A model generated the notes under the pieces. It was not told where the DNA came from and did no database searches. It saw only the letters and a program-made list of their open reading frames with translations. From Candidatus Cloacimonadales bacterium (GTDB taxonomy: Bacteria > Cloacimonadota > Cloacimonadia > Cloacimonadales > JAFGVF01): a DNA stretch of 64,000 nucleotides. Below, piece after piece: positions 20,643 to 39,952 of the stretch (within the stretch, counting starts at the first letter, position 1; every line of letters begins with the position of its first letter). The translations under genes and the position numbers were made by a program. The stretch covers positions 546,815 to 610,814 of the forward strand of contig OY762964.1 in assembly GCA_963667035.1 (NCBI GenBank), given 5' to 3'.

Positions 20643-20643
20643 A

Positions 20644-21675: not shown

Positions 21676-21676
21676 A

Positions 21677-21753: not shown

Positions 21754-21801
21754 AGTTTATAATCGCTTATCGCAAGATAAGCTAATTTTATATGTGAATG
21801 C

Positions 21802-21878
<77 letters not shown>

Positions 21879-21888
21879 TTTCTTTTAT

Positions 21889-21965
21889 GGTGGCTGTAGC
21901 TCAGCTGGCAGAGTACTTGATTGTGGCTCAAGATGTCGCGGGTTCAAGTCCCGTCAGCCACCCCA
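21889..21965 (+). tRNA. tRNA-His (GTG)
   Basis: It has the extra G-1 opposite C73 that is diagnostic of tRNA-His. The anticodon stem-loop is CTTGA-TTGTGGC-TCAAG and the T-arm is GCGGGTTCAAGTCCCGT. CCA is encoded. Confidence 0.9.
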
Positions 21966-22036
21966 CTTTTAAATCAATCATTGCTTATTTTATAATCTAT
22001 ATTATCATGTCTCCAAACAAATATTTCGGAGGATTT

Positions 22037-22846: not shown

Positions 22847-22859
22847 ATTATGATAAAAA

Positions 22860-22880
22860 AAGCCCGGTAAATCCGGGCTT
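22860..22880. terminator. Shared terminator hairpin between convergent mscS and the minus-strand envelope operon
   Basis: AAGCCCGG-TAAAT-CCGGGCTT, flanked by an A-run on the left (a T-run for the minus-strand transcript) and AAATTTTA on the right. Confidence 0.6.
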
Positions 22881-22885
22881 AAATT

Positions 22886-26115: not shown

Positions 26116-26126
26116 TGATACACCTC

Positions 26127-27725: not shown

Positions 27726-27743
27726 ACAATTACCTCATTTTTG

Positions 27744-28709
27744 TTAAAATAAACTGAAATTACCTTTAGCTAATTCTTTATTGAAACTAACTCCTTGAAT
27801 TTTGAATCTGCTTCTTTCATAAAGCTGTTTCAATATATAATGGTCATTTCCATAGAGTAAAGAAATATTTTTTTCTGAGACCTCAATTCTGCAATCATGT
27901 TCCATTGATTTTAAGATGTCTCTAATCAATATTTCTCCTTTTACTAATTCTCCAAAGTTGGGATGAAACGGTCCATCAATTACAGCATCTCTTTCAACAA
28001 TGTCCGAGTGAAGTCCTACTTTAGCAATCGTAATGTTTGCCTTTTCGAAGTTCTCAATCATTGTGACCGAATCATAAAGAGCTTGTTCTAAAGTAAGCGG
28101 AGTATACAATCCTCTATTATATAGTAATTCCAAAGGAGTTTCCTTTAAAATTAATAACGGATATATTCTAACAAAATCAGGTTTAATATCTACAGTTGTC
28201 TTAATAGTCTTTTCCAGAGTTTCTTTACTATACCCGGGGAGTCCCGGCATTAGCTGTATGCCAAGAGATAAACCACTATTCTTTATAAGTTTAGAAGCTT
28301 TAATAGCAACATCACAGGTGTAGTTTCTGCTGGATTTCTTTAATACATCATTATCGAAACTCTGAATCCCCAACTCAACAGTTCTGACTTGATTATCAAT
28401 ACTTTCAACAAGAATTTCTTCACTAATGCAATCGGGACGTGTTGAATATCGAATATGTGTATCAGTATCTAGAAATGGTTTAACCAATTGATAGTATTCT
28501 TTTCTTGTCTCAATAGGTAAGGCCGTGAAAGTGCCCCCGAAGAAAGCTATTTCCTTTGGTTGGTTAGGATTGTTTATTTTAAAAAGATGTAATCCTTCTT
28601 TCAATTTCTCAGGATTGATACTATCTGATCCGGTAATATCAAATTGATTACAGTAAATACATTGATAAGGGCATCCTTGCTGAGGAATGAATACAGGATA
28701 AATTCTCAT
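27744..28709 (-). CDS. Radical SAM protein (ELP3-like catalytic domain, no GNAT domain)
   Basis: 321 aa. The N-terminal sequence VFIPQQGCPYQCIYCNQ carries the CxxxCxxC cluster motif in the context typical of bacterial ELP3-like enzymes. Its start overlaps the rnc stop. Confidence 0.8.
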   Translation of the reverse strand: MRIYPVFIPQQGCPYQCIYCNQFDITGSDSINPEKLKEGLHLFKINNPNQPKEIAFFGGTFTALPIETRKEYYQLVKPFLDTDTHIRYSTRPDCISEEILVESIDNQVRTVELGIQSFDNDVLKKSSRNYTCDVAIKASKLIKNSGLSLGIQLMPGLPGYSKETLEKTIKTTVDIKPDFVRIYPLLILKETPLELLYNRGLYTPLTLEQALYDSVTMIENFEKANITIAKVGLHSDIVERDAVIDGPFHPNFGELVKGEILIRDILKSMEHDCRIEVSEKNISLLYGNDHYILKQLYERSRFKIQGVSFNKELAKGNFSLF

Positions 28710-29482
28710 TAAATCTTTAGAATGCTACAAGCTTCTTTGGCTGCATTTTGCTGAGCTTCTTTTTTGCTTGAACCGGAACCGGTCCCTACTTTCTCTCCGT
28801 TTATAAAAACACTCATAATAAATGTTTTATTATGATCCGGTCCGACTTCTCCGTCTTTCTCATATGTAGGAGGAGCTTGGAATTTTGATTGGCTGTATTC
28901 TTGTAACATACTCTTAAAGTTTTTCAGCTCATCCTGATTGATTAGTTTTCTGAAATTAGTAAGCACGATGTTTCTAACAAGTGCCCCTGCTTCTTCCAAA
29001 TCACTATCCAAATAAACGGCACAAATCAATGCTTCCATAGCATCAGATAGAATCGACGGACGTTTTCTGCCTCCGTTTCTATCTTCATCTTCGCTCAGCA
29101 TTAAATAACTTCCGAGATCTATCTCTATTGCTTTCACAGTGAGATACTTCTCTGAAACTATTTTAGATTTCATTTTAGAGAGTGTGCCTTCCTGACTTTC
29201 CGGAAATGTTAGAAACAGTTCTTGAGAAACAAAGAGCCCAAGAATTGAGTCCCCTAAGAACTCCATTCTCTCAAAAGGTGATATAGAACAGGCATAGGGA
29301 GCTTTCTTCCTAAAATAGGAGTTATGTGTAAAAGCACTTTTCAAAAGATTTATATCATTAAATTTATAATTAATTCTTTTCTGAAACTCAAGGAGTCTAT
29401 CTTCCCATTCACTATCTTCAATTACTATTGTTTCTCTACGTGAATTGAAAATCCCTGACAGACGTTTGATAATTGTATTCAA
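28709..29482 (-). CDS. rnc: Ribonuclease III
   Basis: 257 aa with the RNase III signature ERMEFLGDSILG and a C-terminal dsRBD (GPDHNKTF...GSGSSKKEAQQNAAKEA). Confidence 0.95.
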   Translation of the reverse strand: MNTIIKRLSGIFNSRRETIVIEDSEWEDRLLEFQKRINYKFNDINLLKSAFTHNSYFRKKAPYACSISPFERMEFLGDSILGLFVSQELFLTFPESQEGTLSKMKSKIVSEKYLTVKAIEIDLGSYLMLSEDEDRNGGRKRPSILSDAMEALICAVYLDSDLEEAGALVRNIVLTNFRKLINQDELKNFKSMLQEYSQSKFQAPPTYEKDGEVGPDHNKTFIMSVFINGEKVGTGSGSSKKEAQQNAAKEACSILKI

Positions 29483-29495
29483 TACTACCTCTGAG

Positions 29496-29519
29496 ATGAG
29501 GGGGCGTGATGCCCCCCAT
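29496..29519 (-). promoter_or_regulatory. GC-rich hairpin in the fabF-rnc intergenic leader
   Basis: ATG(A)GGGGGC-GTGAT-GCCCCCCAT (9 bp plus one bulge), located 14-37 nt upstream of the rnc ATG. It is conspicuously GC-rich in AT-rich surroundings and no T-run follows it on the minus strand. Confidence 0.3.
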
Positions 29520-29523
29520 AAAA

Positions 29524-30759
29524 TCAGTATTTACCGATAACTATTGCAGAGTTTTGTCCACCAAATCCTAGAGAATTACTTATAGCATAAGTTATTTTAT
29601 GGTCTATAGATTTACCTTGTACATAATCAAGGTCACATTCCGGATCCGGATTGATAAGGTTTGCGGTTAAGTGAACTTTTTGATCATTAATTGACTTAAC
29701 ACAAACGATTGCTTCCATAGCTGCGGCAGCACCTAACATATGTCCAACCATTGATTTTGTTGAACTAATTTTTACTGTATAAGCATGGTCACCAAAAACA
29801 CTCTTTATTGCTCTTGTTTCTGTAACATCATTTAAAGGTGTTGAGGTCCCATGTGCGTTAATATAATCAATATCTTCAGGTTTCAGTCCTGCATCAGAAA
29901 TAGCCATTTGCATAGCTCTGGTACTACCTTCTCCAGATTCAGTTGGAGCGGTAATATGATATGCATCTGCAGTAGCACCATATCCCAAAAGTTCTGCATA
30001 TATCTTTGCTCCACGAGCTTTGGCATGTTCAAGCTCTTCAAGAACAAGAACAGCTGCACCTTCAGAGATAACAAATCCGTCTCTATCTTTATCAAATGGT
30101 CTACTTGAAGTAGCAGGATCATCATTTCTGGTAGAGAGTGCTTTCATGGATGAGAAACCACCTACAGCCATTGGAGAGACAGAAGCCTCACAGCCTGTAG
30201 TTAAAACCAGGTCAGCGTCACCGTACTGAATAGAACGGAAAGCTGTTCCAATCGCATGATTAGAACTTGCACAAGCAGACACAACGTTAAAGTTGATACC
30301 TTTAAGATTGTGCTCAATTGATATGTGAGCAGATGCTATATTAGATATCATTTTTGGGATAAAAAACGGACTGATACGTCTAGGTCCTTTCAGAACCTTC
30401 TTTTCGACTTCTTCTTCAAATGTATGAATTCCACCAATTCCTGCACCGGTAATGCATCCAAATCTGTCAGGATTGTAGTCACAGTTCTTTAATCCTGAAT
30501 CTTTCATTGCCTGACGAGCAGCAACTACCGCGTACTGGGCATATAAGTCTATTTTTTTTACTTCTTTAGCATCAAAATGGTCTATTGGATCATAACCGTT
30601 TATCTGGGCAGCGAATTTGACTCCAAATTTTTCGGTATCAAATCTTTCGATATTTCTTATACCTACTTTCCCGGACAAGAGGTTTGCCCATGTTTCATCA
30701 ACACTATTTCCTACAGGGTTTATGGTTCCTAATCCTGTAATAACAACTCTTCTTTTCAT
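29524..30759 (-). CDS. fabF: 3-oxoacyl-ACP synthase II
   Basis: 411 aa with the active-site Cys in VVSACASSNHAIG, the His motifs INAHGTSTP and KSMVGHMLGAAA, and the C-terminus GFGGQNSAIV. Confidence 0.95.
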   Translation of the reverse strand: MKRRVVITGLGTINPVGNSVDETWANLLSGKVGIRNIERFDTEKFGVKFAAQINGYDPIDHFDAKEVKKIDLYAQYAVVAARQAMKDSGLKNCDYNPDRFGCITGAGIGGIHTFEEEVEKKVLKGPRRISPFFIPKMISNIASAHISIEHNLKGINFNVVSACASSNHAIGTAFRSIQYGDADLVLTTGCEASVSPMAVGGFSSMKALSTRNDDPATSSRPFDKDRDGFVISEGAAVLVLEELEHAKARGAKIYAELLGYGATADAYHITAPTESGEGSTRAMQMAISDAGLKPEDIDYINAHGTSTPLNDVTETRAIKSVFGDHAYTVKISSTKSMVGHMLGAAAAMEAIVCVKSINDQKVHLTANLINPDPECDLDYVQGKSIDHKITYAISNSLGFGGQNSAIVIGKY

Positions 30760-30785
30760 AAAAACCTCTGTTCATTAATGTGTAG

Positions 30786-30825
30786 AAAATAAAAGGTTGC
30801 TCAAATGTTGCCATCCGAACAACCT
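30786..30825 (-). terminator. Hairpin plus T-run after acpP (possible partial terminator or attenuator)
   Basis: On the minus strand, AGGTTG...CAACCT is followed by TTTTATTTTC. It lies between acpP and fabF. Confidence 0.4.
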
Positions 30826-30838
30826 CAAATATCTAAGA

Positions 30839-31075
30839 TTAACCGTTAAGTTTTGATGTAAGATAACTGACAGCTTGACCAACAGTGCGAAGTTTGTCCT
30901 GATCTTCTTCAGGGATTTCGATATCGAATTTGTCTTCAAACTTCATTACAAGCTCAACTGTATCTAATGAATCTGCACCTAAATCATCGATGAAATTAGC
31001 TTCATCAGTGATTTGACTTTCATCTACGTTAAGTTCTTCCATTATGATTTTTTTTACTTCTTGTGCGATATCCAT
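30839..31075 (-). CDS. acpP: Acyl carrier protein
   Basis: 78 aa with the phosphopantetheine attachment motif [13 protein letters not shown]. Confidence 0.95.
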
Positions 31076-31099
31076 TATATCCTCCTAAGTTTTATACTT

Positions 31100-31846
31100 C
31101 TAGATTATAAGGCCACCGTCAACATTGATGACTTGACCTGTTATATATTCTGCTTCATCAGAAGCAAGGAATAAACATAAATCCGCAACATTCTTCACTG
31201 AGCCCATTCTACTTAATGGTATGGCTTTTGCATATTCAGCGATAACGTTCTCACCGAGATTCTCCGTCATCTCGGTTTCAATAAATCCCGGAGCTACTGC
31301 ATTTACTCTTATACCTCTTGAGGCAAATTCTTTAGCAGTAGATTTGGTTAAAGCAATAACTCCACCTTTTGAGGCAGCGTAATTAGCCTGACCTGCATTT
31401 CCCATAACACCAATAACCGAGGCGATATTAACAATAACGCCTGATTTTTGTTTTAAAAGATAACGACTAAGCTTCTGAGTACAAATAAAAGTTCCTTTCA
31501 GATTTACGGCAATGACTGTATCCCAATCGGATTCTTTCATTCTCATTATAAGGTTATCTTTAGTGATACCGGCGTTATTTACTAAAATATCTATGTGACC
31601 ATGTTTAGCACTTACTTCTTTGAAGATGTCTGCTATAGTATCTCCATCAGTCACATTGGCAGCATATCCTTCAGCTTTGTAACCTAAATCGGTTAACTTC
31701 TTAACTGCTTCATCAATAGATTCTTGCATCAAATCAAGAATAACTATTAAAGCACCTTCTTCAGCAAAGCGTTGTGCTATTCCAAAGCCTATGCCACGAG
31801 CACTTCCGGTTATTACTGCTACTTTATCTTTTAATCTATTCTGCAT
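31100..31846 (-). CDS. fabG: 3-oxoacyl-ACP reductase
   Basis: 248 aa SDR with TGSARGIG, NNAG and YAASK motifs. It sits within the fab operon. Confidence 0.95.
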   Translation of the reverse strand: MQNRLKDKVAVITGSARGIGFGIAQRFAEEGALIVILDLMQESIDEAVKKLTDLGYKAEGYAANVTDGDTIADIFKEVSAKHGHIDILVNNAGITKDNLIMRMKESDWDTVIAVNLKGTFICTQKLSRYLLKQKSGVIVNIASVIGVMGNAGQANYAASKGGVIALTKSTAKEFASRGIRVNAVAPGFIETEMTENLGENVIAEYAKAIPLSRMGSVKNVADLCLFLASDEAEYITGQVINVDGGLII

Positions 31847-32792
31847 TGTTTAATCCTTCTAAAACTGTGTCTATATCTGAAAGTTTATCAACGTTATAAA
31901 CAATTGCATTCCTGTCTATTTTTTTTATCATACCACTAAGAACTTTGTTAGGTCCAAACTCAATAAATACTTTAACACCTTCGTTAACCATGCGAGTTAC
32001 ACAATCTACCCACAGTACAGAAGATGTTACTTGTTTTGTTAAGTTATCAACAATTTTCATTGGGTCGGTTGCCGGTAAGGCATCCACATTTGATACTACC
32101 GGAATATCGGTTGTATTGAATTGCATCTTAGTCATTTCTTCATTTAACCAGATACCGGCTTTCTCAATTAGCGGAGAGTGGAAAGGACCACCGACAACTA
32201 ACGGAACAGCTCTTTTAGCTCCATTAGCTTTACATATCTCTGCAGCTTTTTTTACACCTGCTTCACTACCTGATATAACGGTTTGTACCGGAGTATTAAA
32301 GTTAGCAGCTATTACTATCCCTTCACTTTGGGCTTCTTCACAGGCATTTTTTACACCTTCGGAGTCCATACCGATAATTGCATACATTGCATAGGGCTGA
32401 TCTCCGTTAGCATCAATCATGAATTGTCCTCTTTTATGAACAAGGTGTAATGCATCTTCAACCGATAAAACACCATTTGCAACTAATGCTGAGAACTCAC
32501 CTAATGAATGACCTGCAACGAAACCGGGTGTTATACCGCTTTTCTCTATGAAACTTTTCCAAGCACAGTAGCTATGAAATAAAATAGCAGGTTGTGTATA
32601 TTTTGTTTCTTTTAATTCGCTTTCAGGACCTTCAGCCATTATAGTAGCTAGTGTTGTTTCATGATTTGCATCAAAACTAGTTAAAATTTCTTGCAGTTCG
32701 GGATTTGCTTCTATAAAATCTGAAGCCATTCCAATATATTGAGCACCTTGTCCAGGAAAGACAAAAGCTATTTCTTCATTTGAAAGGTTCAT
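31836..32792 (-). CDS. fabD: Malonyl-CoA:ACP transacylase
   Basis: 318 aa with FPGQGAQ and the active-site motif GHSLGE. Confidence 0.95.
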   Translation of the reverse strand: MNLSNEEIAFVFPGQGAQYIGMASDFIEANPELQEILTSFDANHETTLATIMAEGPESELKETKYTQPAILFHSYCAWKSFIEKSGITPGFVAGHSLGEFSALVANGVLSVEDALHLVHKRGQFMIDANGDQPYAMYAIIGMDSEGVKNACEEAQSEGIVIAANFNTPVQTVISGSEAGVKKAAEICKANGAKRAVPLVVGGPFHSPLIEKAGIWLNEEMTKMQFNTTDIPVVSNVDALPATDPMKIVDNLTKQVTSSVLWVDCVTRMVNEGVKVFIEFGPNKVLSGMIKKIDRNAIVYNVDKLSDIDTVLEGLNNAE

Positions 32793-32801
32793 TTTTACTC
32801 C

Positions 32802-33797
32802 TTAATATCTAAAGAGAACACTACCCCAAGTTAATCCGGCTCCGAAGGAAACAATGTGAATTACATCTCCACGTCTTATCTTTCCCTCTTCAATTGCTTC
32901 GGAAATTGCAATAGGAATAGTAGCGGATGAAGTATTTGCATATTTTTCAATATTAACAATTACTTTATCCTTATTTATCTTCATTTTATTACCTAGACTT
33001 TCAATAATTCTCATGTTTGCCTGATGAGGAACTAACCAATCAAGATCATTGAAGTCCATGTTATTGCGTTTTATTATATTCTCACTCGTTGAATACATTG
33101 ATTTAACAGCCAATTTGAAAACTCGATTACCTTGCATTGAAACGGTATGCTTGTTTTCTCTTACAGTTTCTTCAGTTGCAGGTAATCTTGAACCACCGGC
33201 TTCCTGAACCAATAACTCATGATAGTTACCATCAGCAAGAATCTCAGAATCGATAATCTTGGAAGTTTCATTACTCTGAGCTCTGGAGATAATGGCTGCA
33301 CCGGCTCCGTCACCGAAAAGAACACAAGTGTTTCTATCTTTCCAGTTTAGGATTTTTGAGAGTATTTCTACTCCAATAACTAGTACATTCTGCTTTGTTC
33401 CGTTCTCCACGAATTGTCTGGCAATATCGGATGCATAGATGAATCCGGGGCATCCTGCCGAGATATCAAAAGCCGGTATCCCTTTCAACCCGAGATTGTT
33501 CTGTACAAAACAAGCTGTTGATGGGAAGGCATGATCGGGAGATATTGTTCCACAGATTATTAAATCTATGTCCTTATACTTAATATTTGAGTTTTCGATA
33601 CAGTTTTGGGCTGCTTTTGTTGCCAAGTCACTTGCTGCCTGCTCAGGAGCTGCAATTCTCCTTTCAAACATTCCTGTTCTAGTTCTGATCCATTCGTCAC
33701 TTGTATCAACTATTTTCTCAAGATCGTAGTTGTTTAAGATTTTCTCAGGAACATAACGTCCGAACGCAGTATACTTTGCTTTGTATTTCATATTCAC
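32802..33797 (-). CDS. fabH: 3-oxoacyl-ACP synthase III
   Basis: 331 aa with the active-site Cys in ISAGCPGFIYA, plus HQAN and GAGLTWG motifs. Confidence 0.95.
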   Translation of the reverse strand: MNMKYKAKYTAFGRYVPEKILNNYDLEKIVDTSDEWIRTRTGMFERRIAAPEQAASDLATKAAQNCIENSNIKYKDIDLIICGTISPDHAFPSTACFVQNNLGLKGIPAFDISAGCPGFIYASDIARQFVENGTKQNVLVIGVEILSKILNWKDRNTCVLFGDGAGAAIISRAQSNETSKIIDSEILADGNYHELLVQEAGGSRLPATEETVRENKHTVSMQGNRVFKLAVKSMYSTSENIIKRNNMDFNDLDWLVPHQANMRIIESLGNKMKINKDKVIVNIEKYANTSSATIPIAISEAIEEGKIRRGDVIHIVSFGAGLTWGSVLFRY

Positions 33798-34789
33798 TGC
33801 CTTTCAAAATAATCGATAGAATGCTTAACGAAACCTGAATTTACTATTCTGGTTGCATATTTTATCGCATTCTTAATTGACAAGGCGTTTGAACTGCCAT
33901 GTCCGATTATCGTTATACCTCTTACTCCAACAAGGAGTGAACCACCGTATTCCGTGTGGTCTAATCGTTTTTTTAGATATGCATAAGCGGGGAAAGAAAG
34001 CAATGCACCTATCTTTGCTATCCAGTCTTTAGCAATCTGTTCTTTTATTATTTTGAGTACAGATAACACTGAACCTTCAAATGTCTTTAGCATTACATTT
34101 CCAACAAATCCATCACATACAATTACATCCGTTCCACCCTGAAGCAGATATTTACCTTCTATGTTTCCATGAAAGTTTATCCTTTCCTCATTGGATAGTA
34201 GCTCGTATGTCCGCTTAACAAGATCATTTCCTTTCTCAGCTTCTTCTCCTATATTGAGTAATGATACTCGAGGAGATTTAGTGTGAAAGAAATACTGACT
34301 ATATAAGGTTCCTAAAAGGGCAAATTGCTGAAGATGCTCAGGGGCACAATCAACGTTAGCTCCCACATCCAGTAAAATGACAGGGTTTTCAGTAGTTGGA
34401 AATACAACTGCTAAAGCAGGGCGCATAATGTTTTTTATACGCTTATATGCGAATAGAGATGCACTCATAACCGCACCGGTATTGCCGGCACTTACAGCTG
34501 CATCTGCAATCCCTTCTTTATGTAATTCTACTGTACGAACCAGAGAAGAGTCTTTTTTCTTTCTGACAGAGCTTGCCGCTTTGTCACTCATCTCGATTCG
34601 CTCTGATGCCGGAATTATCTCAATTCTGGACTTATCATAAAAATACTTTTCCAACTCTTTGGCTAATACTTCTTCCTTACCAACTAGGAATATCTTATCA
34701 CAAATATTCTCCCTAATAGCAAGAACCGCACCCTCCACTTCAGGATAAGGTGCGTGATCACTGCCAAATGCGTCTAAAGCTATTTGCAT
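33794..34789 (-). CDS. plsX: Phosphate acyltransferase PlsX
   Basis: 331 aa. The N-terminus is MQIALDAFGSDHAP, with SAGNTGA and VCDGFVGN motifs. rpmF-plsX-fabH synteny is classical. Confidence 0.95.
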   Translation of the reverse strand: MQIALDAFGSDHAPYPEVEGAVLAIRENICDKIFLVGKEEVLAKELEKYFYDKSRIEIIPASERIEMSDKAASSVRKKKDSSLVRTVELHKEGIADAAVSAGNTGAVMSASLFAYKRIKNIMRPALAVVFPTTENPVILLDVGANVDCAPEHLQQFALLGTLYSQYFFHTKSPRVSLLNIGEEAEKGNDLVKRTYELLSNEERINFHGNIEGKYLLQGGTDVIVCDGFVGNVMLKTFEGSVLSVLKIIKEQIAKDWIAKIGALLSFPAYAYLKKRLDHTEYGGSLLVGVRGITIIGHGSSNALSIKNAIKYATRIVNSGFVKHSIDYFERQ

Positions 34790-34791
34790 CC

Positions 34792-34977
34792 TTATTTTTC
34801 ACTCTTTATCTCAATTACCTGCTTTCCTTTATAAAATCCGCATGCTTTACAAACATTATGTGGTTTGAATGCTTCTCCACAATTTGGACATATACTGAAG
34901 GCAGGAGCTGAAATCTTATAGTGAGTACGCCTTTTATCTCTACGTGTCTTAGATGTTTTCCGTTTAGGTACTGGCAT
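34792..34977 (-). CDS. rpmF: 50S ribosomal protein L32
   Basis: 61 aa with [17 protein letters not shown] and the zinc-ribbon cysteines CPNCGE...CKACG. Confidence 0.95.
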
Positions 34978-35036
34978 GATGTCTCCTTATTTATATCTTA
35001 CTTATCTATCTTACTCATTAAAGACAATTTCAGCAC

Positions 35037-35064
35037 AAATTATTTTGACCGTCCCATGTGTCAA
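35037..35064 (-). promoter_or_regulatory. Candidate sigma-70-type promoter for the rpmF-plsX-fab operon
   Basis: The minus strand reads TTGACA (35064->35059), 16 nt, then TAATTT (35042->35037), about 55 nt upstream of the rpmF ATG. Confidence 0.35.
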
Positions 35065-35330
35065 GAACTTTAAATAAGTACTTCTCTCGAATACTATTAG
35101 AACTTTTCTGTCACTAATAGGACAATCCTATGACATTTAAGACAAAATATTATGTAGGATATATATTCACTACTATGTTTCAACTATTTCTCTGTTAAAT
35201 GAAACAAATTCATTATTGACGTCAAGAGTTTTTCCATTCAATTTCCATAGCTTTATCACTGAGCTCTATCATTCATAGTTTTTTACTATGCCTTTATTCT
35301 GCAATAAACAATAGATTTCTCTTATTACTA

Positions 35331-36236
35331 CTAGAGTTTTTTAAATCCTGTACCTAATGTCTCGTGAACATCACTTATCGTTACAAAGGCTTTAGTATCT
35401 ATATTTTTAAGGATGCTTTTAACTTTAGGAATTTCTCTTCTATTGATTACAGTATATACAATTTCTTTTTTGCTCTCACTAAATGAGCCCTTTCCATAGA
35501 ATATAGTGCAACCTCGATGAAGTTCTGTCATTATTGATTTTCTTACGGGTGTAGATTTATCAGTAACAATCATTACTCCTTTAGAATAAGAAAAGCCTTC
35601 TAATACTAGATCACATATTTTTGAGCTAACAACTAATGAAAGCAAACCCCAAAAAAATAAATTTGGATTCTTAAAAATTGTCCCTATTACAAATATAATG
35701 AAAGTATCTATGATTAAATATGAGTTTCCTATAGTAAATCCAAAATACTTTCTCATCAGTAATGCAGGAATATCTGTTCCCCCAGTTGATCCGTTGAATT
35801 TTATAACCAAACCAAACCCAGCGCCGACTATAACAGAACCGGCCATTATAGCCAGAAAAGGTTCATTAGAAAGAGACCATGCTCTATCATTGATTTTAAA
35901 AAGATAATCCCTTAGAAAAAATACCTTTATCATGTTTCTTGAGGAGAAAAAATCCGTAAAAAAAGTCAACGAAAACATTCCTACTATTGTTTTAATTCCA
36001 AATTGTTTACCAAAAGCAATCAACCCAACAATAAACAGGGGAATATTTATCATTAACATACTTATCCCTGCTGGAAACTGAAATAAATAATAAAAGATTT
36101 GAGCTATACCACCAACTCCACCTGGTGATGATTTATAAGGTATAAGAAACAGAGAAAAGCCGATTCCGCAAAGAATAGTTCCAATTATAATGCCAATTGC
36201 ATCTTTAATAAAACCAAAGTTAATTTTCACAAGCAC
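35331..36236 (-). CDS. YitT-family membrane protein (with DUF2179 C-terminal domain)
   Basis: 301 aa with multiple TM helices. It has GGTGG-type motifs (SSPGGVGGIAQI, GSTGGTDIPA) and a soluble C-terminal domain. Confidence 0.8.
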   Translation of the reverse strand: MLVKINFGFIKDAIGIIIGTILCGIGFSLFLIPYKSSPGGVGGIAQIFYYLFQFPAGISMLMINIPLFIVGLIAFGKQFGIKTIVGMFSLTFFTDFFSSRNMIKVFFLRDYLFKINDRAWSLSNEPFLAIMAGSVIVGAGFGLVIKFNGSTGGTDIPALLMRKYFGFTIGNSYLIIDTFIIFVIGTIFKNPNLFFWGLLSLVVSSKICDLVLEGFSYSKGVMIVTDKSTPVRKSIMTELHRGCTIFYGKGSFSESKKEIVYTVINRREIPKVKSILKNIDTKAFVTISDVHETLGTGFKKL

Positions 36237-36323
36237 CTCTTGCTTTTTAAAAGTAAAATGTTTAATAGTAATAATAAACTAAGAATGTTGAAATATCTAT
36301 TTGCTAACACTTGATTCAAAAAA

Positions 36324-36509
36324 TCAAAGTTTATCAATCAACATCTGTTTTTGAGCTTTAGCTTTTTTCTCAGAATCAAACTTATAGGATAATATTTTGT
36401 TATCTTTCGTTACTACATCAAAAACATAAAGCCATCCTGTGTGATAAAAGACTTCATATATCTCTGAGACATTGACAATTTTTCCTATATCTATGTTTTC
36501 AATCTTCAT
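36324..36509 (-). CDS. Small hypothetical protein (61 aa), last gene of the riboswitch-controlled operon
   Basis: Its start overlaps the EamA stop by 4 nt, which suggests translational coupling. I recognised no motif. Confidence 0.35.
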   Translation of the reverse strand: MKIENIDIGKIVNVSEIYEVFYHTGWLYVFDVVTKDNKILSYKFDSEKKAKAQKQMLIDKL

Positions 36510-37426
36510 TGTTTATTCCTCACTGAAAGTCTTTTTTTTATCATAACTGTTTTTTTTACAATAGTCTCTATATTTATACCCATTATGACTAATGCGATTC
36601 CCAAGAATTGACCAATATATATAGTCTCATGAAACATAATAAAAGCCAGTATTGAAACTATTACAGGTTTTAGAAAAAAGAGTATAGCTCCGGTAGTAGT
36701 TGGAACACTCTTCAATCCTTCAAAATATGAAAGATAAGCTAAACCAGAGACAAAAATCCCTAAGTAAACTATTGTAATTACATTAAACCATGTAATCTCA
36801 AATGTAACATCTACTTTCGAGATTAATGCTATCATACCTAAAACTATGCTACCTATTATAAATGAGATAGTATTGGTAACGACATTACCGTGTTTTTTTA
36901 CATTCTTTTTTGAGAGTATAGTATATAGTCCAAATGAGAAAGAAGCTACACAACCGAATATAATCCCTAATAAAGGATTAAGAGCTTTACTTTCCTGGAA
37001 AGACTCATATCCAATAATTGTAATTACACCAATAATTCCAACTATGATTCCAATTATTTTAACAAATGATAAACTCTCTTTCAATATGTATTTAGCTAGT
37101 ATTGCTACAAACACAGGATTTGCACTTATAAGAATTGCACTTAATGATGCCTCTCCATAGTAAACAGCTAATTGTAAAGATAGCATTGATATGACAATAT
37201 TGATTATGCCAAGAAGAGATAAGGAGAACATATCTTTAAAACTGAGCGTTGCTTCCTTGTTTATTATTTTTTTTAAACAAAGAGGTAGCATTATGATACC
37301 TCCAAGCATAAATCTATAAATAGTAATTCCAATTGGAGAAATGCTATCTCCCAAAAGTTTGCTTGTTAACTCCAATGTAGAGAATAGGAACACAGCAACT
37401 AGAATAAATAAGTAACTCATTAACAA
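36506..37426 (-). CDS. EamA/DMT-family transporter
   Basis: 306 aa with about 10 TM helices in two EamA-like halves. Its start overlaps the ligase gene stop by 7 nt. Confidence 0.85.
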   Translation of the reverse strand: MLMSYLFILVAVFLFSTLELTSKLLGDSISPIGITIYRFMLGGIIMLPLCLKKIINKEATLSFKDMFSLSLLGIINIVISMLSLQLAVYYGEASLSAILISANPVFVAILAKYILKESLSFVKIIGIIVGIIGVITIIGYESFQESKALNPLLGIIFGCVASFSFGLYTILSKKNVKKHGNVVTNTISFIIGSIVLGMIALISKVDVTFEITWFNVITIVYLGIFVSGLAYLSYFEGLKSVPTTTGAILFFLKPVIVSILAFIMFHETIYIGQFLGIALVIMGINIETIVKKTVMIKKRLSVRNKQ

Positions 37427-39438
37427 TTCTCCAACTGATTTATAATCTTGTATATATCTGAAGGTAACTCAGCTATCATGCACCCTGCATTCTTGAGTAT
37501 TTCTTTTTTATACTGTACTGTCGATTTCTCACTATTAATGATTGCACCTGCATGTCCCATTTTGGAACCTTTAGGAGCAGAATCTCCTGCAAAAAAAGCA
37601 ATTAAAGGTTTTGTTTTGTTAATTGATTTTATCAGATTTGCTAATTTTTCTTCCTCCTCTCCACCACCTATCTCTCCTATATAGACTATATAATCACTCT
37701 CTTTAGAATTTAATAGGAATGTAACTGTATCAATCACAGAGGTTCCTGATATTGGATCACCACCTAATCCGATAGCAGTTGAAACTCCTTTAGTATTATT
37801 ACTGATCTCATTTGCAATTTCATAGAGTAGTGTTCCGCTTTTTGACATTATTGCAACATTTCCCTTTTTAAGAATCTTACCAGGAATGATACCTAGATTC
37901 GCTTCATTTACTCGTATTATCCCAGGACAATTAGGTCCTATAATCCTAGCACCTTTTTCATACGCATAATGAACCATTTCCATAGTATCATGAATAGGCA
38001 CATGTTCTGTAATTATAACTATCAAATTTACTCCAGCGTCAATTGCTTCAATAGTTGCGGATTTTACATGAGGAGCGGGAACAAACAATACAGTTGCATC
38101 AACATGAGTGTTTGCAGTAACTTCTTTTACTGAGTTATAAATTGTAACACCATGTATTGTTTCCCCTCCACGACCAGGAGTAACACCAGCTACTATCTTA
38201 GTACCATATTCTAGCATTTTTTTTGCATGATATGAGCCATATTTCCCTGAAATGCCTTGCACAATTACTTTAGAATCTCTGGATACAAAGAATTGAGAAT
38301 CATGCTTTTGCGATATTTCTACTGCCTTGCGGGCTGCTCTTTCCATACTATTATAAGCAAAGATACCATTTTCTTTAAGCATTGAAATTGCTATATCAGA
38401 ATTGTTTCCCATCATTCTTATAATCATCGGTAGTGAGTTTATATTCGTAGAGCGATACTCTATAATTGCTTCAGCAATCTTGTCACAAAATGTTATTCCT
38501 CCAAAAATATTTACGAAGATACAATTGATTTTACTATTAGAGTTTAACAGTTTAAGAGCGTTTAAAGTAATTTCTTTAGTTGCTCCACCACCTAAATCCA
38601 AGAAATTAGCAGGTGTACCGTTAAATTTTTTTATCATATCCATTGAAGCCATTACTATACCTGCTCCACATCCCATTATCCCAATACTTCCGTCTAGTTC
38701 AAGATAATGTGAACCGAAATGATTCGAACCATCAAAATACAATTGATTCATTGAAAGATTCTCTAGTTCGGCAAAAAGTTCTTCATGTCTAAACTTTGCT
38801 GATTCATCTATATCTATAACACAATCAAGGCAAATTGGTGTATCTTCTTTATCAAATACAAATGGATTGATTTCTAAAAGAGTGGCATCGATAGATAAGA
38901 ATACTTGCTTTATCAATACTGCAAACTCAATAAATTTGTTTAACTTTTTTTTATTGGGGAAGAAACAAAATGTGTTATCCATTAATTGTCTTTTAAACAC
39001 TTCATTTTTTATACTTACTTGTAAAGTAATTATGCTTTCAGGATTATCTGATGCTACTTTTTCAATATCAACACCACCAAAAGGAGAGAAAATTGCAGTT
39101 AAGCTCTTCGAAGCTCTGTCAATTAACATACAAAAATAATACTCTTGCTCTATATTAATAGACTCTTCAACTAATATGCCTACAGATCTTTCACCTTTAA
39201 ACTCTTGGTTTATAATCCAATTACACATTTCTTCAAACTTTGATGTATCATCTAGTAATTGAACTAGATTTGCTTTACCTCTTCCTCCTGCTAGAACTTG
39301 ACTCTTGAGTACTACTGGGAAACTAAAAGGGATTTTTGAATAATCAAACAGCTCCCCTTCTTTAAAGAAGTGATTTCGAGGAATAGTTAAATTGTGCTCT
39401 TCTAGAATTTTTTTTGATTGGAATTCATGAATCTTCAT
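37420..39438 (-). CDS. Fused succinyl-CoA-synthetase-like ligase (SucC-like ATP-grasp beta part + SucD-like CoA-binding alpha part in one polypeptide)
   Basis: 672 aa. The N-terminus (MKIHEFQSKKILEEH..., VVLKSQVLAGGRGKA, NIFGGI) is SucC-like. From about residue 385 (KVIVQGISGKYGSYHAKKMLEYGTKIVAGVTPG, IGPNCPGII, SKSGTL, phosphohistidine loop MGHAGAII) it is SucD-like. Confidence 0.75.
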   Translation of the reverse strand: MKIHEFQSKKILEEHNLTIPRNHFFKEGELFDYSKIPFSFPVVLKSQVLAGGRGKANLVQLLDDTSKFEEMCNWIINQEFKGERSVGILVEESINIEQEYYFCMLIDRASKSLTAIFSPFGGVDIEKVASDNPESIITLQVSIKNEVFKRQLMDNTFCFFPNKKKLNKFIEFAVLIKQVFLSIDATLLEINPFVFDKEDTPICLDCVIDIDESAKFRHEELFAELENLSMNQLYFDGSNHFGSHYLELDGSIGIMGCGAGIVMASMDMIKKFNGTPANFLDLGGGATKEITLNALKLLNSNSKINCIFVNIFGGITFCDKIAEAIIEYRSTNINSLPMIIRMMGNNSDIAISMLKENGIFAYNSMERAARKAVEISQKHDSQFFVSRDSKVIVQGISGKYGSYHAKKMLEYGTKIVAGVTPGRGGETIHGVTIYNSVKEVTANTHVDATVLFVPAPHVKSATIEAIDAGVNLIVIITEHVPIHDTMEMVHYAYEKGARIIGPNCPGIIRVNEANLGIIPGKILKKGNVAIMSKSGTLLYEIANEISNNTKGVSTAIGLGGDPISGTSVIDTVTFLLNSKESDYIVYIGEIGGGEEEEKLANLIKSINKTKPLIAFFAGDSAPKGSKMGHAGAIINSEKSTVQYKKEILKNAGCMIAELPSDIYKIINQLENC

Positions 39439-39444
39439 TATTAT

Positions 39445-39467
39445 CTCCTTAATTTCATATTAAGGAG
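39445..39467 (-). promoter_or_regulatory. Shine-Dalgarno-sequestering hairpin of the riboswitch expression platform
   Basis: The minus strand forms CTCCTTAAT-ATGAA-ATTAAGGAG. The 3' arm contains the AAGGAG SD, which lies 6 nt before the ATG at 39438. GGAGGG at 39541->39536 could compete for CCCTCC at 39469->39464. Confidence 0.5.
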
Positions 39468-39573
39468 GGTTAGAGTAACCTATGTGAATAGTAATAGAGA
39501 AGTATTACCCCTTATCCACAAGCGTCATACACTTTCCCTCCGAAAGTAATTCCGTACAGATTTAAATCTGTAT

Positions 39574-39730
39574 GATACGGCATGTCTCCTGACTTGAAGT
39601 TTACCTCCGAGCTCCCTTCCCATCAGTTTAATGACAGTGGTATGAACTCTTTGTTCCTTCTTACAGTAGCGGGGGCTGTTCTCGATTTTCACGAGATTCC
39701 ATCTTAGCTCTTCATTAGAGAACCAGTATC
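39574..39730 (-). promoter_or_regulatory. Cobalamin (B12) riboswitch aptamer
   Basis: The minus strand carries three conserved blocks in the canonical order: GGAATCTCGTGAAAATCGAGAACAGCCCCCGCTACTGTAA, then CCACTG...GGGAAGG, then the B12 box AGTCAGGAGACATGCC. A GATAC/GTATC P1 closes the structure. A candidate -35 TTGACT lies at 39764->39759. Confidence 0.85.
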
Positions 39731-39952
39731 TTGTTTAATGATTATTTGCTTCAAAATGAGTCAAGAAAATCTTACTGCTTTCTTCAATGTTTGCTCCATT
39801 AGTACAGGTAAGTTCCCATATTTCATTAATATACATTTCTTTGTAATATGTGCTCACATATTACCAGATACGCAAGGATCCTGCTCGCTATAAGACATGC
39901 CGGTAAAATGCTAGCGTACCCCGGTTTGTAGTGCAAGTGCCCTCACTTGCAC

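What the first reader, a model, noticed from the sequence alone, without database searches (positions are those of the whole stretch)
39439..39730. Cobalamin riboswitch with an SD-sequestering platform in front of a non-classical regulon (fused SucCD-like ligase, EamA transporter, 61-aa protein)
On the minus strand, 39730->39574 reads GATACTGGTTCTCTAATGAAGAGCTAAGATGGAATCTCGTGAAAATCGAGAACAGCCCCCGCTACTGTAAGAAGG...ACCACTGTCATTAAACTGATGGGAAGGGAGCTCGGAGGTAAACTTCAAGTCAGGAGACATGCCGTATC. This carries the conserved B12-riboswitch blocks in canonical order: the GGAA..GTGAAAATC..GCCCCCGCTACTGTAA core, then CCACTG..GGGAAGG, then the B12 box AGTCAGGAGACATGCC. A GATAC/GTATC P1 closes the aptamer.

Downstream, CTCCTTAAT-ATGAA-ATTAAGGAG (39467->39445) buries the AAGGAG SD. 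GGAGGG (39541->39536) can alternatively pair with CCCTCC (39469->39464). Together these look like a translational switch.

The three downstream genes overlap each other by 7 nt and 4 nt, so they form one unit. None belongs to the classical B12 regulon (btuB, cob/cbi, metE, nrd).

B12 riboswitches normally repress either B12 supply genes or B12-independent alternatives. One inference is that this ligase supplies succinyl-CoA, or a related acyl-CoA, when the B12-dependent methylmalonyl-CoA mutase route is unavailable, with the EamA protein moving a related metabolite.
Basis: partly seen in the sequence, partly recalled or inferred. Interest (0 to 1): 0.7.

Follow-up and report, generated by a model that had tools for sequence, protein, structure and literature searches.

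The report
B12 riboswitch controlling fused succinyl-CoA synthetase operon
A genuine vitamin-B12-sensing RNA sits in front of a fused succinyl-CoA synthetase gene and two membrane-protein genes in a Cloacimonadota-like bacterium, but B12 control of succinyl-CoA synthetase is already documented in other anaerobes, so this is a new example rather than a new kind of regulation.

Summary
Rfam RF00174 (cobalamin riboswitch) matches window 39743..39562 on the minus strand at 107.6 bits (gathering score 31.5), over the full model.

The RNA lies 123 nt upstream of a 672-aa fused SucC(beta)-SucD(alpha) ligase.

All six loci encoding close orthologues of the ligase (50-68% identity, Cloacimonadota) carry the same riboswitch. 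Four distant fused ligases and a stand-alone EamA orthologue do not.

The expression platform is conserved. It has a hairpin whose loop, GGAGG(G), mimics a Shine-Dalgarno (SD) sequence, an anti-SD (CCCUCCUUAAU), and an SD hairpin with no terminator. This fits a translational OFF switch.

The "non-classical regulon" claim is overstated. B12 riboswitches upstream of sucCD are catalogued for Thermotogales and a Clostridium. sucC and sucD fell 4-10-fold with B12 in Thermosipho africanus. The methylmalonyl-CoA mutase rationale is also published.

New here are the phylum, the fused enzyme, the co-transcribed permeases and the relay-type platform.

Verdict: a real feature and a new member of a known kind, of modest interest.

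The parts
39562..39743 (-). Cobalamin riboswitch aptamer (RF00174). P1 is GATAC 39730..39726 with GTATC 39578..39574. The L5 loop CCCCCG lies within AGCCCCCGCT. The B12 box is AGTCAGGAGACATGCC.
   Evidence: 107.6 bits against gathering score 31.5, E = 5.4e-26, full model 1-189. Orthologous aptamers score 115-121 bits. 14 of 24 predicted pairs carry compensatory changes.
39531..39547 (-). P13-like hairpin ACUUUC-GGAGG-GAAAGU. Its loop plus the first 3' stem base (GGAGGG, 39541..39536) mimics an SD sequence. It is the proposed partner of either L5 (B12-bound state) or the anti-SD CCCUCC (B12-free state).
   Evidence: CTTTCGGAGGGAAAGT is identical in 5 of 6 leaders, although the proteins are only 54-68% identical. 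The hairpin appears in the MFE folds of the window, L001 and L002. The L5 kissing interaction is inferred, not tested.
39459..39470 (-). Anti-SD element ACCCUCCUUAAU. CCCUCC (39469..39464) can pair with GGAGGG of the upstream hairpin. CUCCUUAAU (39467..39459) pairs with the SD region.
   Evidence: Conserved in 5 of 6 leaders. Only C-to-U and A-to-G changes occur, and these keep G-U pairs.
39445..39467 (-). SD-sequestering hairpin CUCCUUAAU-AUGAA-AUUAAGGAG. The SD AAGGAG is at 39450..39445, 6 nt before the ATG at 39438..39436.
   Evidence: Present in the MFE and centroid folds. The arms are conserved while the loop varies from 5 to 11 nt in length and in sequence. No U-tract follows, and no terminator was found in the leader.
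37420..39438 (-). Fused succinate-CoA-ligase-like protein of 672 aa. SucC/beta (ATP-grasp) covers residues 1-~380 and SucD/alpha (CoA-binding, phosphohistidine) covers ~383-672.
   Evidence: Pfam and NCBIfam. PDB alignments show GHAGA (MGHAGAI), SKSGT, NIFGGIT and ANFLDLGGGAT. Clade orthologues P0002-P0007 are 50-68% identical.
36506..37426 (-). EamA/DMT-family permease. 306 aa from TTG 37426, or more likely 304 aa from ATG 37420, which overlaps the ligase stop as TAATG.
   Evidence: PF00892 at 158 bits with two repeats. Follows the ligase in all six loci at 41-58% identity. Start codon.
36324..36509 (-). 61-aa ORF with an ATGA overlap with the EamA stop. No known family.
   Evidence: No Pfam or NCBIfam hit. 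Weak homologues sit at the same position in L001 (6936-7067, 32% identity) and L002 (39% identity over 41 aa). Absent in L005. The small ORF at this position in L006 is unrelated.
35331..36236 (-). YitT/DUF2179 membrane protein, probably the fourth gene of the unit. The start may be GTG 36230.
   Evidence: PF02588 at 178 bits and PF10035 at 75 bits. Orthologues of 57-69% identity lie directly after the EamA or small ORF in L001, L002 and L005, overlapping them in L002 and L005. No terminator-like site in the 87-nt gap.

Best explanation
A canonical long-form (class-I type, presumably adenosylcobalamin-sensing) cobalamin riboswitch acts as a translational OFF switch. It controls a Cloacimonadota-specific operon: a fused SucC-SucD succinyl-CoA synthetase, an EamA/DMT permease, a tiny ORF, and probably a YitT/DUF2179 membrane protein.

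Proposed mechanism:
- The expression platform holds a hairpin whose loop (GGAGG plus G) mimics the Shine-Dalgarno (SD) sequence.
- Without B12, this mimic can pair with the anti-SD CCCUCC. The true SD (AAGGAG) is then free and the operon is translated.
- With B12 bound, aptamer loop L5 (CCCCCG) captures the mimic loop as the usual L5-L13 kissing loop.
- The anti-SD then pairs with the SD in the hairpin CUCCUUAAU/AUUAAGGAG, and initiation is blocked. The downstream genes are translationally coupled through TAATG and ATGA overlaps.

Proposed physiological logic: the ligase is the B12-independent way to make succinyl-CoA, from succinate plus ATP plus CoA. The permeases may bring in the succinate. 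The ligase becomes dispensable when B12-dependent methylmalonyl-CoA mutase can supply succinyl-CoA. This logic is already proposed for riboswitch-controlled sucCD in Thermotogales.

Shown here: the aptamer's identity, its strict linkage to this ligase clade, the conserved platform elements, and the absence of a terminator.

Inferred: the ligand form, the L5-L13 contact, the OFF direction, succinate as substrate, and the roles of the permeases.
For: Aptamer:
- 107.6 bits over the full model.
- Compensatory changes at 14 of 24 predicted pairs.

Linkage to the ligase clade:
- The riboswitch is present in 6 of 6 loci of the 50-68%-identity ligase clade.
- It is absent from 4 of 4 loci of distant fused ligases at 31-39% identity (L008, L009, L015, L016).
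- It is absent from a stand-alone EamA orthologue at 52% identity (L017).

Platform:
- CTTTCGGAGGGAAAGT and ACCCTCCTTAAT...ATTAAGGAG are conserved in 5 of 6 leaders, while the spacers and the hairpin loop vary.
- L006 implements the same three-part logic with different sequences. Its hairpin is CUUCA-CGGGAUUA-UGAAG, the downstream complement is CUUCAUAAAUCCCG, and that complement overlaps the anti-SD ...ACUUC.
- The ON and OFF states differ by only 0.1-2.6 kcal/mol in L001, L002, L004 and L005, and by 1.4 kcal/mol in L006.
- Blocking the L13 loop lowers the predicted SD accessibility in all six leaders. In L004 it falls from 0.36 to 0.002 and in L005 from 0.28 to 0.004.
- No terminator-like site lies in the leader.

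Enzyme:
- All SCS domains are present, as are the phosphohistidine motif MGHAGAI and the NIFGGIT and ANFLDLGGGAT motifs.

Precedent:
- B12 riboswitches upstream of sucCD are documented, with 4-10-fold repression by B12 in Thermosipho. Methylmalonyl-CoA mutase is named as the compensating route (PMC3509894; PMC3766115).
- Methylmalonyl-CoA mutase is reported in over 90% of digester Cloacimonadota genomes. 2-oxoglutarate:ferredoxin oxidoreductase is reported to link succinyl-CoA to 2-oxoglutarate (bioRxiv 10.1101/2025.11.11.687785).
Against: - In the window itself the OFF fold is 6.2 kcal/mol more stable than the ON fold. The SD is predicted to be masked at equilibrium whether or not L13 is free (0.004 against 0.002). 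The switch would therefore have to be kinetic, or the model is incomplete for this leader.
- L5 (CCCCCG) and L13 (CGGAGGG) pair only as 3+3 bp around a bulged A. No covariation test of this contact is possible, because both loops are invariant in five leaders.
- The SD-hairpin arms show only one-sided (wobble-preserving) changes and no double compensations.
- The ligase clade carries substitutions at positions that are 80-100% conserved in other SCS: SRSGTLTYE to SKSGTLLYE, VNGAG to GCGAG, K207V and G58L. The beta half scores below the NCBIfam equivalog cut-off, 329.9 against 370. The substrate need not be succinate.
- EamA-family proteins are mostly known as exporters (own knowledge), which fits succinate import poorly.
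- The presence of methylmalonyl-CoA mutase in this genome is unverified.
Confidence: 0.6

Rival explanations
1. The RNA switch is the same, but the operon is an overflow or detoxification module for B12 starvation. When the mutase is inactive, methylmalonyl-CoA (or another dicarboxylyl-CoA) accumulates and traps CoA. The diverged fused ligase then runs in the thioester-cleaving, ATP-yielding direction, and the EamA and YitT proteins export the free acid.
For: - The ligase clade is well separated from other SCS: 729 bits for the last clade member against 439 bits for the next hit.
- It has clade-specific substitutions at otherwise conserved positions.
- The beta half scores below the equivalog cut-off.
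- Two membrane proteins are co-regulated.
- EamA relatives with known functions are mostly exporters (NCBIfam names: YddG, YedA, the O-acetylserine/cysteine exporter).
- SCS is described as otherwise 'missing' in digester Cloacimonadota that run a methylmalonyl-CoA pathway.
Against: - The motifs around the succinate and phosphohistidine sites (NIFGGIT, ANFLDLGGGAT, GHAGA) match bona fide SCS.
- The alpha half passes the SucD equivalog cut-off, 343.2 against 336.
- No direct evidence exists for an altered substrate.
- An EamA orthologue exists alone and unregulated in another genome, so its role is not tied to B12.
Confidence: 0.18
2. The operon belongs to cobamide supply rather than to a B12-independent bypass. 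The permeases would import a corrinoid precursor or lower ligand. The ligase would provide succinyl-CoA for tetrapyrrole synthesis (C4 route) or would activate a precursor.
For: - Most riboswitch-controlled genes fall in B12 synthesis or in B12, precursor or cobalt transport (PMC3766115).
- Two uncharacterised membrane proteins sit in the operon.
Against: - No cob, cbi, btu, hem or ALA-synthase gene lies in the window or in any of the six orthologous loci.
- The riboswitch tracks the ligase, not the permease.
- No known cobamide step uses an ADP-forming succinyl-CoA synthetase (own knowledge).
Confidence: 0.07
3. The riboswitch is real but does not act by SD masking. It might act by Rho-dependent or intrinsic termination, or through mRNA stability. 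Alternatively, the conserved GGAGGG hairpin might be the SD of a short leader ORF (GGAGGG-N8-AUG ACG CUU GUG GAU AAG GGG UAA in the window) whose translation couples to the main gene.
For: - In the window the SD is predicted to be masked at equilibrium in both states, so something beyond simple thermodynamic SD masking is needed.
- GGAGGG followed by an AUG at a suitable distance exists in the window.
- B12 repression of sucCD in Thermosipho was measured at the RNA level.
Against: - No terminator-like hairpin with a U-tract lies in the leader.
- The leader-ORF start codon and reading frame are not conserved in L001, L002, L004 or L005.
- The anti-SD and SD arms are the most conserved platform elements.
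- Blocking L13 lowers SD accessibility in every leader.
Confidence: 0.12

Closest known systems
B12-riboswitch-controlled sucCD clusters of Thermotogales (Thermotoga lettingae, Thermosipho, Fervidobacterium) and Clostridium sp. OhILAs
   Same: - A cobalamin riboswitch lies directly upstream of succinyl-CoA synthetase genes.
- Translational control was suggested for Tt. lettingae.
- Extra uncharacterised genes share the operon (sucCD-Tmel_1872, sucCD-TM0177, THA_169-sucCD-Clos_0625).
- The rationale is that B12-dependent methylmalonyl-CoA mutase is the alternative source of succinyl-CoA.
- Sources: PMC3509894 and PMC3766115.
   Different: - Here the two subunits are fused into one 672-aa polypeptide.
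- The host is a Cloacimonadota-like bacterium.
- The co-transcribed genes are an EamA permease, a tiny ORF and YitT/DUF2179. Whether the Thermotogales extra genes are of these families could not be determined.
- The alpha half is closest to archaeal-type SucD.
- B12 repression is measured there and only inferred here.
Kissing-loop translational cobalamin riboswitches (E. coli btuB, env8 HyCbl; Johnson et al. 2012, Peselis and Serganov 2012; own knowledge)
   Same: - The aptamer carries the L5 CCCCC loop.
- A downstream hairpin has a G-rich loop able to pair with L5.
- Regulation works through access to the ribosome-binding site, without a terminator.
   Different: - In those RNAs the ribosome-binding site lies in or next to P13/L13 itself.
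- Here the candidate L13 hairpin is about 90 nt upstream of the real SD and carries only an SD mimic.
- A separate anti-SD/SD hairpin would relay the signal.
- The L5-L13 contact is untested here.
B12-riboswitch repression of B12-independent isozymes (metE, nrdAB/nrdDG)
   Same: The regulatory logic matches. A B12-independent way to reach a product is switched off when B12 makes the B12-dependent route available (PMC3766115, category 'isozymes of B12-dependent enzymes').
   Different: SCS is not an isozyme of methylmalonyl-CoA mutase. It reaches the same product, succinyl-CoA, from a different substrate. The parallel is therefore at pathway level and is inferred.
Other fused SucC-SucD ligases (Desulfonauticus, Desulfonatronovibrio and uncultured lineages; P0008-P0054)
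   Same: The beta-alpha domain order and length (670-700 aa) are the same. One of them (L009) sits next to ndk-yceD-rpmF-plsX-fabH, the same neighbourhood as in the window.
   Different: - They are only 31-39% identical.
- They have no riboswitch, EamA or YitT.
- L015 lies among TCA-type genes: citrate synthase, isocitrate dehydrogenase and malate dehydrogenase.

Membership tests
Rfam RF00174 cobalamin riboswitch | Covariance-model score at or above the curated gathering score, over the whole model | tested here: met
   107.6 bits against 31.5, model positions 1-189 of 189, E = 5.4e-26.
Rfam RF00174 cobalamin riboswitch | Conserved core and B12 box in canonical order (GGAA...GUGAAAAUC...GCCCCCGC-ACUGUAA...CCACUG...GGGAAGG...AGUCAGGAGAC-UGCC) | tested here: met
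   Residue-by-residue alignment to the consensus, and the sequence read.
Rfam RF00174 cobalamin riboswitch | Helices supported by compensatory changes among homologues | tested here: met
   14 of 24 RNAalifold pairs have double changes in the six orthologous aptamers. Only six sequences were available, so this is modest support.
Rfam RF00174 cobalamin riboswitch | Sense orientation in the 5' leader of the regulated gene | tested here: met
   The aptamer ends 123 nt before the ligase ATG on the same strand. The arrangement is the same in L001, L002, L004, L005 and L006.
Rfam RF00174 cobalamin riboswitch | Binds a cobalamin and changes gene expression in response | not testable with these tools
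   Needs in-line probing or ITC and reporter assays.
Succinate-CoA ligase (ADP-forming), SucCD | Beta ATP-grasp domain plus alpha CoA-binding and CoA-ligase domains | tested here: met
   PF08442 at 140 bits, PF02629 at 99.5 bits, PF00549 at 131.8 bits.
Succinate-CoA ligase (ADP-forming), SucCD | Catalytic phosphohistidine loop (GHAGA) and the SxSGT and GGI motifs | tested here: met
   MGHAGAI, SKSGTL, NIFGGIT and ANFLDLGGGAT align to solved SCS chains. The assignment of these motifs to catalytic sites rests on own knowledge of SCS structures.
Succinate-CoA ligase (ADP-forming), SucCD | NCBIfam equivalog cut-offs for both subunits | tested here: inconclusive
   The alpha half passes NF004230 (343.2 against 336) but not TIGR01019 (346.6 against 353.2). 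The beta half fails NF001913 (329.9 against 370) and TIGR01016 (319.8 against 375.55).
Succinate-CoA ligase (ADP-forming), SucCD | Two separate subunits encoded by sucC and sucD | tested here: not met
   A single 672-aa ORF with beta then alpha. It works like SCS but is a fused variant.
Succinate-CoA ligase (ADP-forming), SucCD | Succinate as the carboxylate substrate | not testable with these tools
   Clade-specific substitutions at conserved positions leave this open.
B12-riboswitch-regulated sucCD operons (Rodionov 2003 via PMC3509894; RegPrecise via PMC3766115) | RF00174 element immediately upstream of the succinyl-CoA synthetase beta gene | tested here: met
B12-riboswitch-regulated sucCD operons (Rodionov 2003 via PMC3509894; RegPrecise via PMC3766115) | Expression falls when B12 is supplied | not testable with these tools
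   Shown for Thermosipho africanus H1760334 (sucC 4.1-fold, sucD 9.8-fold). Inferred here from the platform.
Kissing-loop (L5-L13) translational cobalamin riboswitches | A downstream hairpin whose loop is complementary to L5 | tested here: inconclusive
   L5 CCCCCG against hairpin loop CGGAGGG gives 3+3 bp around a bulged A. In L006, L5 ACCCG pairs with loop CGGGA over 4 bp. There is no covariation to test.
Kissing-loop (L5-L13) translational cobalamin riboswitches | The ribosome-binding site lies within P13/L13 | tested here: not met
   The real SD (39450..39445) is about 90 nt downstream of the candidate L13 (39541..39537), in a separate hairpin.
EamA / drug-metabolite transporter (DMT) superfamily | Two EamA repeats in a protein of about 300 aa | tested here: met
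   PF00892 at 158.4 bits with two stretches. No NCBIfam equivalog reaches its cut-off, so the substrate is unknown.

The most novel reading that the evidence does not exclude
The riboswitch-linked clade of fused ligases, together with the co-regulated EamA and YitT/DUF2179 membrane proteins, may form a previously undescribed B12-starvation module in Cloacimonadota. In this reading the ligase has shifted substrate, for example to methylmalonyl-CoA or another dicarboxylyl-CoA. The permeases would move the free acid. The module would be controlled by a relay-type expression platform in which L13 is an SD mimic rather than the SD itself. If so, it would give the first functional handle on the widespread YitT/DUF2179 family.
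Probability: 0.15. Interest if true: 0.55.

Novelty: new member of a known kind. Interest (0 to 1): 0.3.

Why it matters
- It extends a little-noticed but documented link, B12 riboswitch to succinyl-CoA synthetase, to a third and uncultivated phylum. Published work already assigns that phylum a carbon metabolism centred on the B12-dependent methylmalonyl-CoA pathway. Succinyl-CoA synthetase is reported there as a 'missing step' in many genomes.
- The strict co-occurrence of riboswitch and ligase clade (6 of 6 against 0 of 4) marks this fused ligase as a specialised paralogue that responds to B12 status. That matters for metabolic reconstructions of syntrophic propionate oxidisers.
- The conserved co-transcription with an EamA permease and a YitT/DUF2179 protein offers a testable hint for two poorly characterised membrane-protein families.
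- It does not change what is known about how cobalamin riboswitches work or what they regulate.

Tried and rejected
1. Metagenome-wide pattern scan. Searching for ACATGCC-N15-45-CTTTCGGAGGGAAAG to collect more leaders gave five hits. Only one was real, and it was the already known P0005 contig. The other four had no riboswitch. The platform comparison therefore stayed at six sequences.

2. Genome-contig scan with the ligase. This found one locus, L007, which is the same species as L001. The source genome is not a GTDB representative.

3. Naming the source organism. The exact-sequence look-ups returned no names, and the ligase is not on record for contig retrieval. The Cloacimonadota assignment rests on the names of the closest relatives.

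4. Looking for B12-related or mutase genes in the window. A Pfam survey of 44 further ORFs found none.

5. A leader peptide behind GGAGGG. Rejected, because the start codon and frame are not conserved.

6. An intrinsic terminator in the leader. None was found.

7. Testing whether the EamA gene is the primary B12 target. Rejected, because a 52%-identical orthologue stands alone without a riboswitch.

8. Testing whether the alpha half is close to Thermotogales or Clostridia SucD, which would suggest a shared B12-regulated subfamily. The named nearest hits are archaeal-type, so there is no support.

9. Literature on YitT/DUF2179 function, and on TM0177, Tmel_1872, Clos_0625 and THA_169. Nothing usable turned up. 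The TM0177 hits are a steel-corrosion test standard.

10. Retrieving Rodionov et al. 2003 directly. The paper is not held, so it is cited through PMC3509894.
Full report
**Observation**

On the minus strand, Rfam RF00174 (cobalamin riboswitch) matches window 39743..39562. The score is 107.6 bits against a gathering score of 31.5, with E = 5.4e-26 and model positions 1-189 of 189 covered. It is the only riboswitch hit in the 64 kb window.

- P1: GATAC 39730..39726 with GTATC 39578..39574
- GGAGGG at 39541..39536
- CCCTCC at 39469..39464
- the hairpin CTCCTTAAT-ATGAA-ATTAAGGAG at 39467..39445
- the ATG at 39438

**Genes behind the riboswitch**

- The first ORF (39438..37420, 672 aa) is a single-chain succinyl-CoA-synthetase-like ligase.
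  - The N-terminal half is SucC/beta: ATP-grasp_2 at 140 bits.
  - The C-terminal half is SucD/alpha: CoA_binding at 99.5 bits and Ligase_CoA at 131.8 bits.
  - Alignments to solved SCS chains show the phosphohistidine loop MGHAGAI, together with SKSGTL, NIFGGIT and ANFLDLGGGAT.
  - The alpha half passes one NCBIfam SucD equivalog cut-off (343.2 against 336). The beta half falls short (329.9 against 370).
- The second ORF is an EamA/DMT permease (PF00892, 158 bits).
  - Its likely start is the ATG at 37420, which overlaps the ligase stop as TAATG and has GGAG 9 nt upstream.
- A 61-aa ORF with no family follows, with an ATGA overlap.
- A YitT/DUF2179 membrane protein (36236..35331) lies 87 nt further on.

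**Comparative evidence**

The ligase has a small, sharply separated set of close relatives. P0002-P0007 are 50-68% identical and score 729-1037 bits. The next hit drops to 439 bits and 35% identity. Names attached to these relatives are Candidatus Cloacimonadota.

DNA was retrievable for five of these relatives: L001 (= L007), L002 (= L003), L004, L005 (= L014) and L006. Each has RF00174 at 115-121 bits immediately upstream of the ligase.

The gene order is conserved:
- The EamA gene follows the ligase in all five loci (41-58% identity).
- YitT follows in L001, L002 and L005 (57-69% identity). It overlaps the preceding gene in L002 and L005.
- The L004 contig ends before this position.
- L006 lacks YitT.
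- A weak homologue of the 61-aa ORF is present in L001 and L002 only.

Several related loci lack the riboswitch:
- Four more distant fused ligases (31-39% identity) have no riboswitch, EamA or YitT. These are L008 from Desulfonauticus, L009, L015 among TCA-cycle-type genes, and L016.
- A 52%-identical EamA orthologue in another 2.9-Mb genome stands alone without a riboswitch.

The riboswitch therefore tracks this ligase clade, 6 of 6 against 0 of 4, and the ligase is the primary regulated gene.

In an alignment of the six aptamers, 14 of 24 RNAalifold-predicted pairs show compensatory double changes.

**Expression platform**

Between the aptamer and the start codon, three elements are conserved, while the spacers differ in length and sequence.

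1. A hairpin, (A)CUUUC-GGAGG-GAAAG(U), at 39547..31. It is identical in five of six leaders.
2. The anti-SD ACCCUCCUUAAU.
3. AUUAAGGAG, which contains the SD 6 nt before the ATG.

Elements 2 and 3 form a 9-12-bp hairpin. Its loop varies from 5 to 11 nt, and its arms change only by C-to-U or A-to-G, keeping G-U pairs. It appears in the MFE and centroid folds. No U-tract follows, and no terminator-like site lies in the leader.

The hairpin loop plus the next G (GGAGGG) is an SD mimic complementary to CCCUCC. I compared two constrained states. In 'ON', the mimic pairs with the anti-SD. In 'OFF', both the hairpin and the SD hairpin are formed.
- The two states differ by 0.1-2.6 kcal/mol in L001, L002, L004 and L005.
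- In the window, OFF is favoured by 6.2 kcal/mol.

Making the loop unavailable lowers the ensemble probability that the SD core is unpaired in all six leaders.
- L004 falls from 0.36 to 0.002.
- L005 falls from 0.28 to 0.004.
- The window falls only from 0.004 to 0.002.

L006 has different sequences but the same layout. Its hairpin is CUUCA-CGGGAUUA-UGAAG. A downstream near-perfect complement, CUUCAUAAAUCCCG, overlaps its anti-SD. The alternative fold lies within 1.4 kcal/mol of the MFE.

**Mechanism**

From established knowledge of cobalamin riboswitches (Johnson et al. 2012; Peselis and Serganov 2012; own knowledge), ligand binding stabilises a kissing loop between L5 (here CCCCCG) and a downstream loop, L13. 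The conserved GGAGG(G) loop is the obvious L13 candidate. It would pair with L5 as 3+3 bp around a bulged A. In L006 the equivalent pairing is CCCG with CGGG.

I therefore propose a relay:
- When B12 is bound, L13 is captured by L5. The anti-SD is then free to mask the SD, and translation is off.
- Without B12, the SD mimic titrates the anti-SD, and translation is on.

The conserved elements, the bistability and the absence of a terminator are shown. The L5-L13 contact, the direction of the switch and the ligand form are inferred.

The weak point is the window's own leader, where equilibrium folding keeps the SD masked in both states. The switch would have to be kinetic (co-transcriptional), or further elements take part.

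A leader peptide behind GGAGGG was considered, since the window has GGAGGG-N8-AUG and a 7-codon ORF. It was rejected because the start and frame are not conserved.

**Comparison with what is known**

- Swithers et al. 2012 (PMC3509894) state, citing Rodionov et al. [quoted passage not shown]
- They describe riboswitch-linked sucCD clusters in Thermotoga lettingae, Thermosipho and Fervidobacterium, and suggest translational control in Tt. lettingae.
- They report that sucC and sucD expression is 4.1- and 9.8-fold lower with cyanocobalamin in Thermosipho africanus H1760334.
- They name B12-dependent methylmalonyl-CoA mutase as the compensating route to succinyl-CoA.
- Sun et al. 2013 (PMC3766115, Additional file 1) list four entries under the cobalamin riboswitch:
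  - 'sucCD' in Tt. lettingae
  - 'sucCD-Tmel_1872' in Ts. melanesiensis
  - 'sucCD-TM0177' in F. nodosum
  - 'THA_169-sucCD-Clos_0625' in Clostridium sp. OhILAs

For Cloacimonadota specifically, a 2025 preprint (10.1101/2025.11.11.687785) reports three relevant points.
- Methylmalonyl-CoA mutase is present in over 90% of digester genomes.
- Succinyl-CoA synthetase is a 'missing step' in representative digester genomes.
- 2-oxoglutarate:ferredoxin oxidoreductase links succinyl-CoA to 2-oxoglutarate.

This makes a B12-independent supply of succinyl-CoA under B12 limitation plausible. It is phylum-level context, not evidence about this genome. The window itself holds no mutase, B12 synthesis or B12 transport gene.

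**What is new**

- The phylum.
- The fusion of both subunits into one polypeptide in a clade that is strictly riboswitch-linked.
- Clade-specific substitutions at positions that are 80-100% conserved in other SCS: SRSGTLTYE to SKSGTLLYE, VNGAG to GCGAG, K207V and G58L.
- The conserved co-transcription with an EamA permease and a YitT/DUF2179 protein.
- A platform in which the candidate L13 is an SD mimic about 90 nt upstream of the real SD, rather than the SD itself.

Nothing here requires a new principle.

The alpha half is closest to archaeal-type SucD (47-54% identity). No link to the Thermotogales enzymes could be shown.

**Rivals**

1. *Overflow module for B12 starvation.* The ligase would cleave accumulated methylmalonyl-CoA or a related CoA ester with ATP gain, and the permeases would export the acid. 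This is favoured by the divergence of the clade and by the exporter bias of EamA relatives. It is disfavoured by the intact SCS motifs.
2. *A role in cobamide supply.* This is disfavoured by the absence of any cob, btu or hem neighbour in six loci, and because the riboswitch tracks the ligase rather than the permease.
3. *A non-translational mechanism.* This is disfavoured by the absence of a terminator and by the conservation pattern. It is kept alive by the window's equilibrium prediction.

**Verdict**

The biological link is already known in other phyla, including experimentally. I rate it a new member of a known kind, with interest 0.3.

The most novel reading not excluded is a substrate-shifted ligase working with EamA and YitT as a distinct B12-starvation module. 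I give this a probability of about 0.15.

Noticed in passing
L009 6001-12250 compared with window 32802-39438: A distant fused SucC-SucD ligase (35% identity, no riboswitch) sits upstream of CBS-ndk-yceD-rpmF-plsX-fabH. In the window the riboswitch-controlled ligase operon sits directly upstream of rpmF-plsX-fabH. L016 also has ndk right after its fused ligase. The shared neighbourhood suggests that the riboswitch-linked ligase descends from a housekeeping fused ligase at this chromosomal position, and that it later gained the leader and the permeases.
   Followed up: partly
window 39744-40477: A 735-bp stretch with no convincing ORF lies between the riboswitch and the divergent FG-GAP/ASPIC gene. 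It contains a plus-strand terminator-like hairpin (39953-39969, ATAGCTCGAAGAGCTAT followed by ATTTTTT), although no plus-strand gene lies upstream of it. No Rfam family matches at gathering score. A promoter for the riboswitch transcript was not identified.
   Followed up: no
window 39541-39505 (minus strand): In the window only, GGAGGG is followed 8 nt later by AUG ACG CUU GUG GAU AAG GGG UAA, a 7-codon ORF. UAAGGGG (39516..39510) could also pair with the anti-SD CUCCUUA. Neither feature is conserved in the other leaders.
   Followed up: partly
same 3.1-Mb source contig, outside the window (P0137): The source genome encodes a second EamA paralogue that is 41% identical to the operon's EamA. 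More EamA orthologues (44-54% identity, P0122-P0136) exist in the databases than ligase orthologues. The permease family is therefore wider than the riboswitch-linked operon.
   Followed up: partly
window 22886-27725 (minus strand): Three consecutive large ORFs (661, 414 and 532 aa) have no Pfam family at E <= 1e-5. They lie next to a radical-SAM gene (27744-28709) and rnc.
   Followed up: no
window 21599-21962: A cluster of four tRNA genes lies on the plus strand. The mechanical MscS-like ORF start at 21887 overlaps the last tRNA, so its real start must lie further downstream.
   Followed up: no
window 5098-10515 and 11391-14129: Two very large secreted proteases carry FlgD_ig or Por_Secre_tail (type IX secretion) C-termini. 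One is an 1805-aa gingipain-like C25 peptidase and the other a 912-aa C10 (streptopain-like) peptidase with an I69 inhibitor domain. This is consistent with a proteolytic lifestyle in the FCB group. A third T9SS-tailed M1 peptidase lies at 54311-57202.
   Followed up: no
window 35331-36236: The YitT ORF as listed (GTG 36236) is not an exact match to any database protein. A second GTG at 36230 has AGAGG 5 nt upstream and is the more likely start. Alignments to orthologues begin around residue 10-12.
   Followed up: partly
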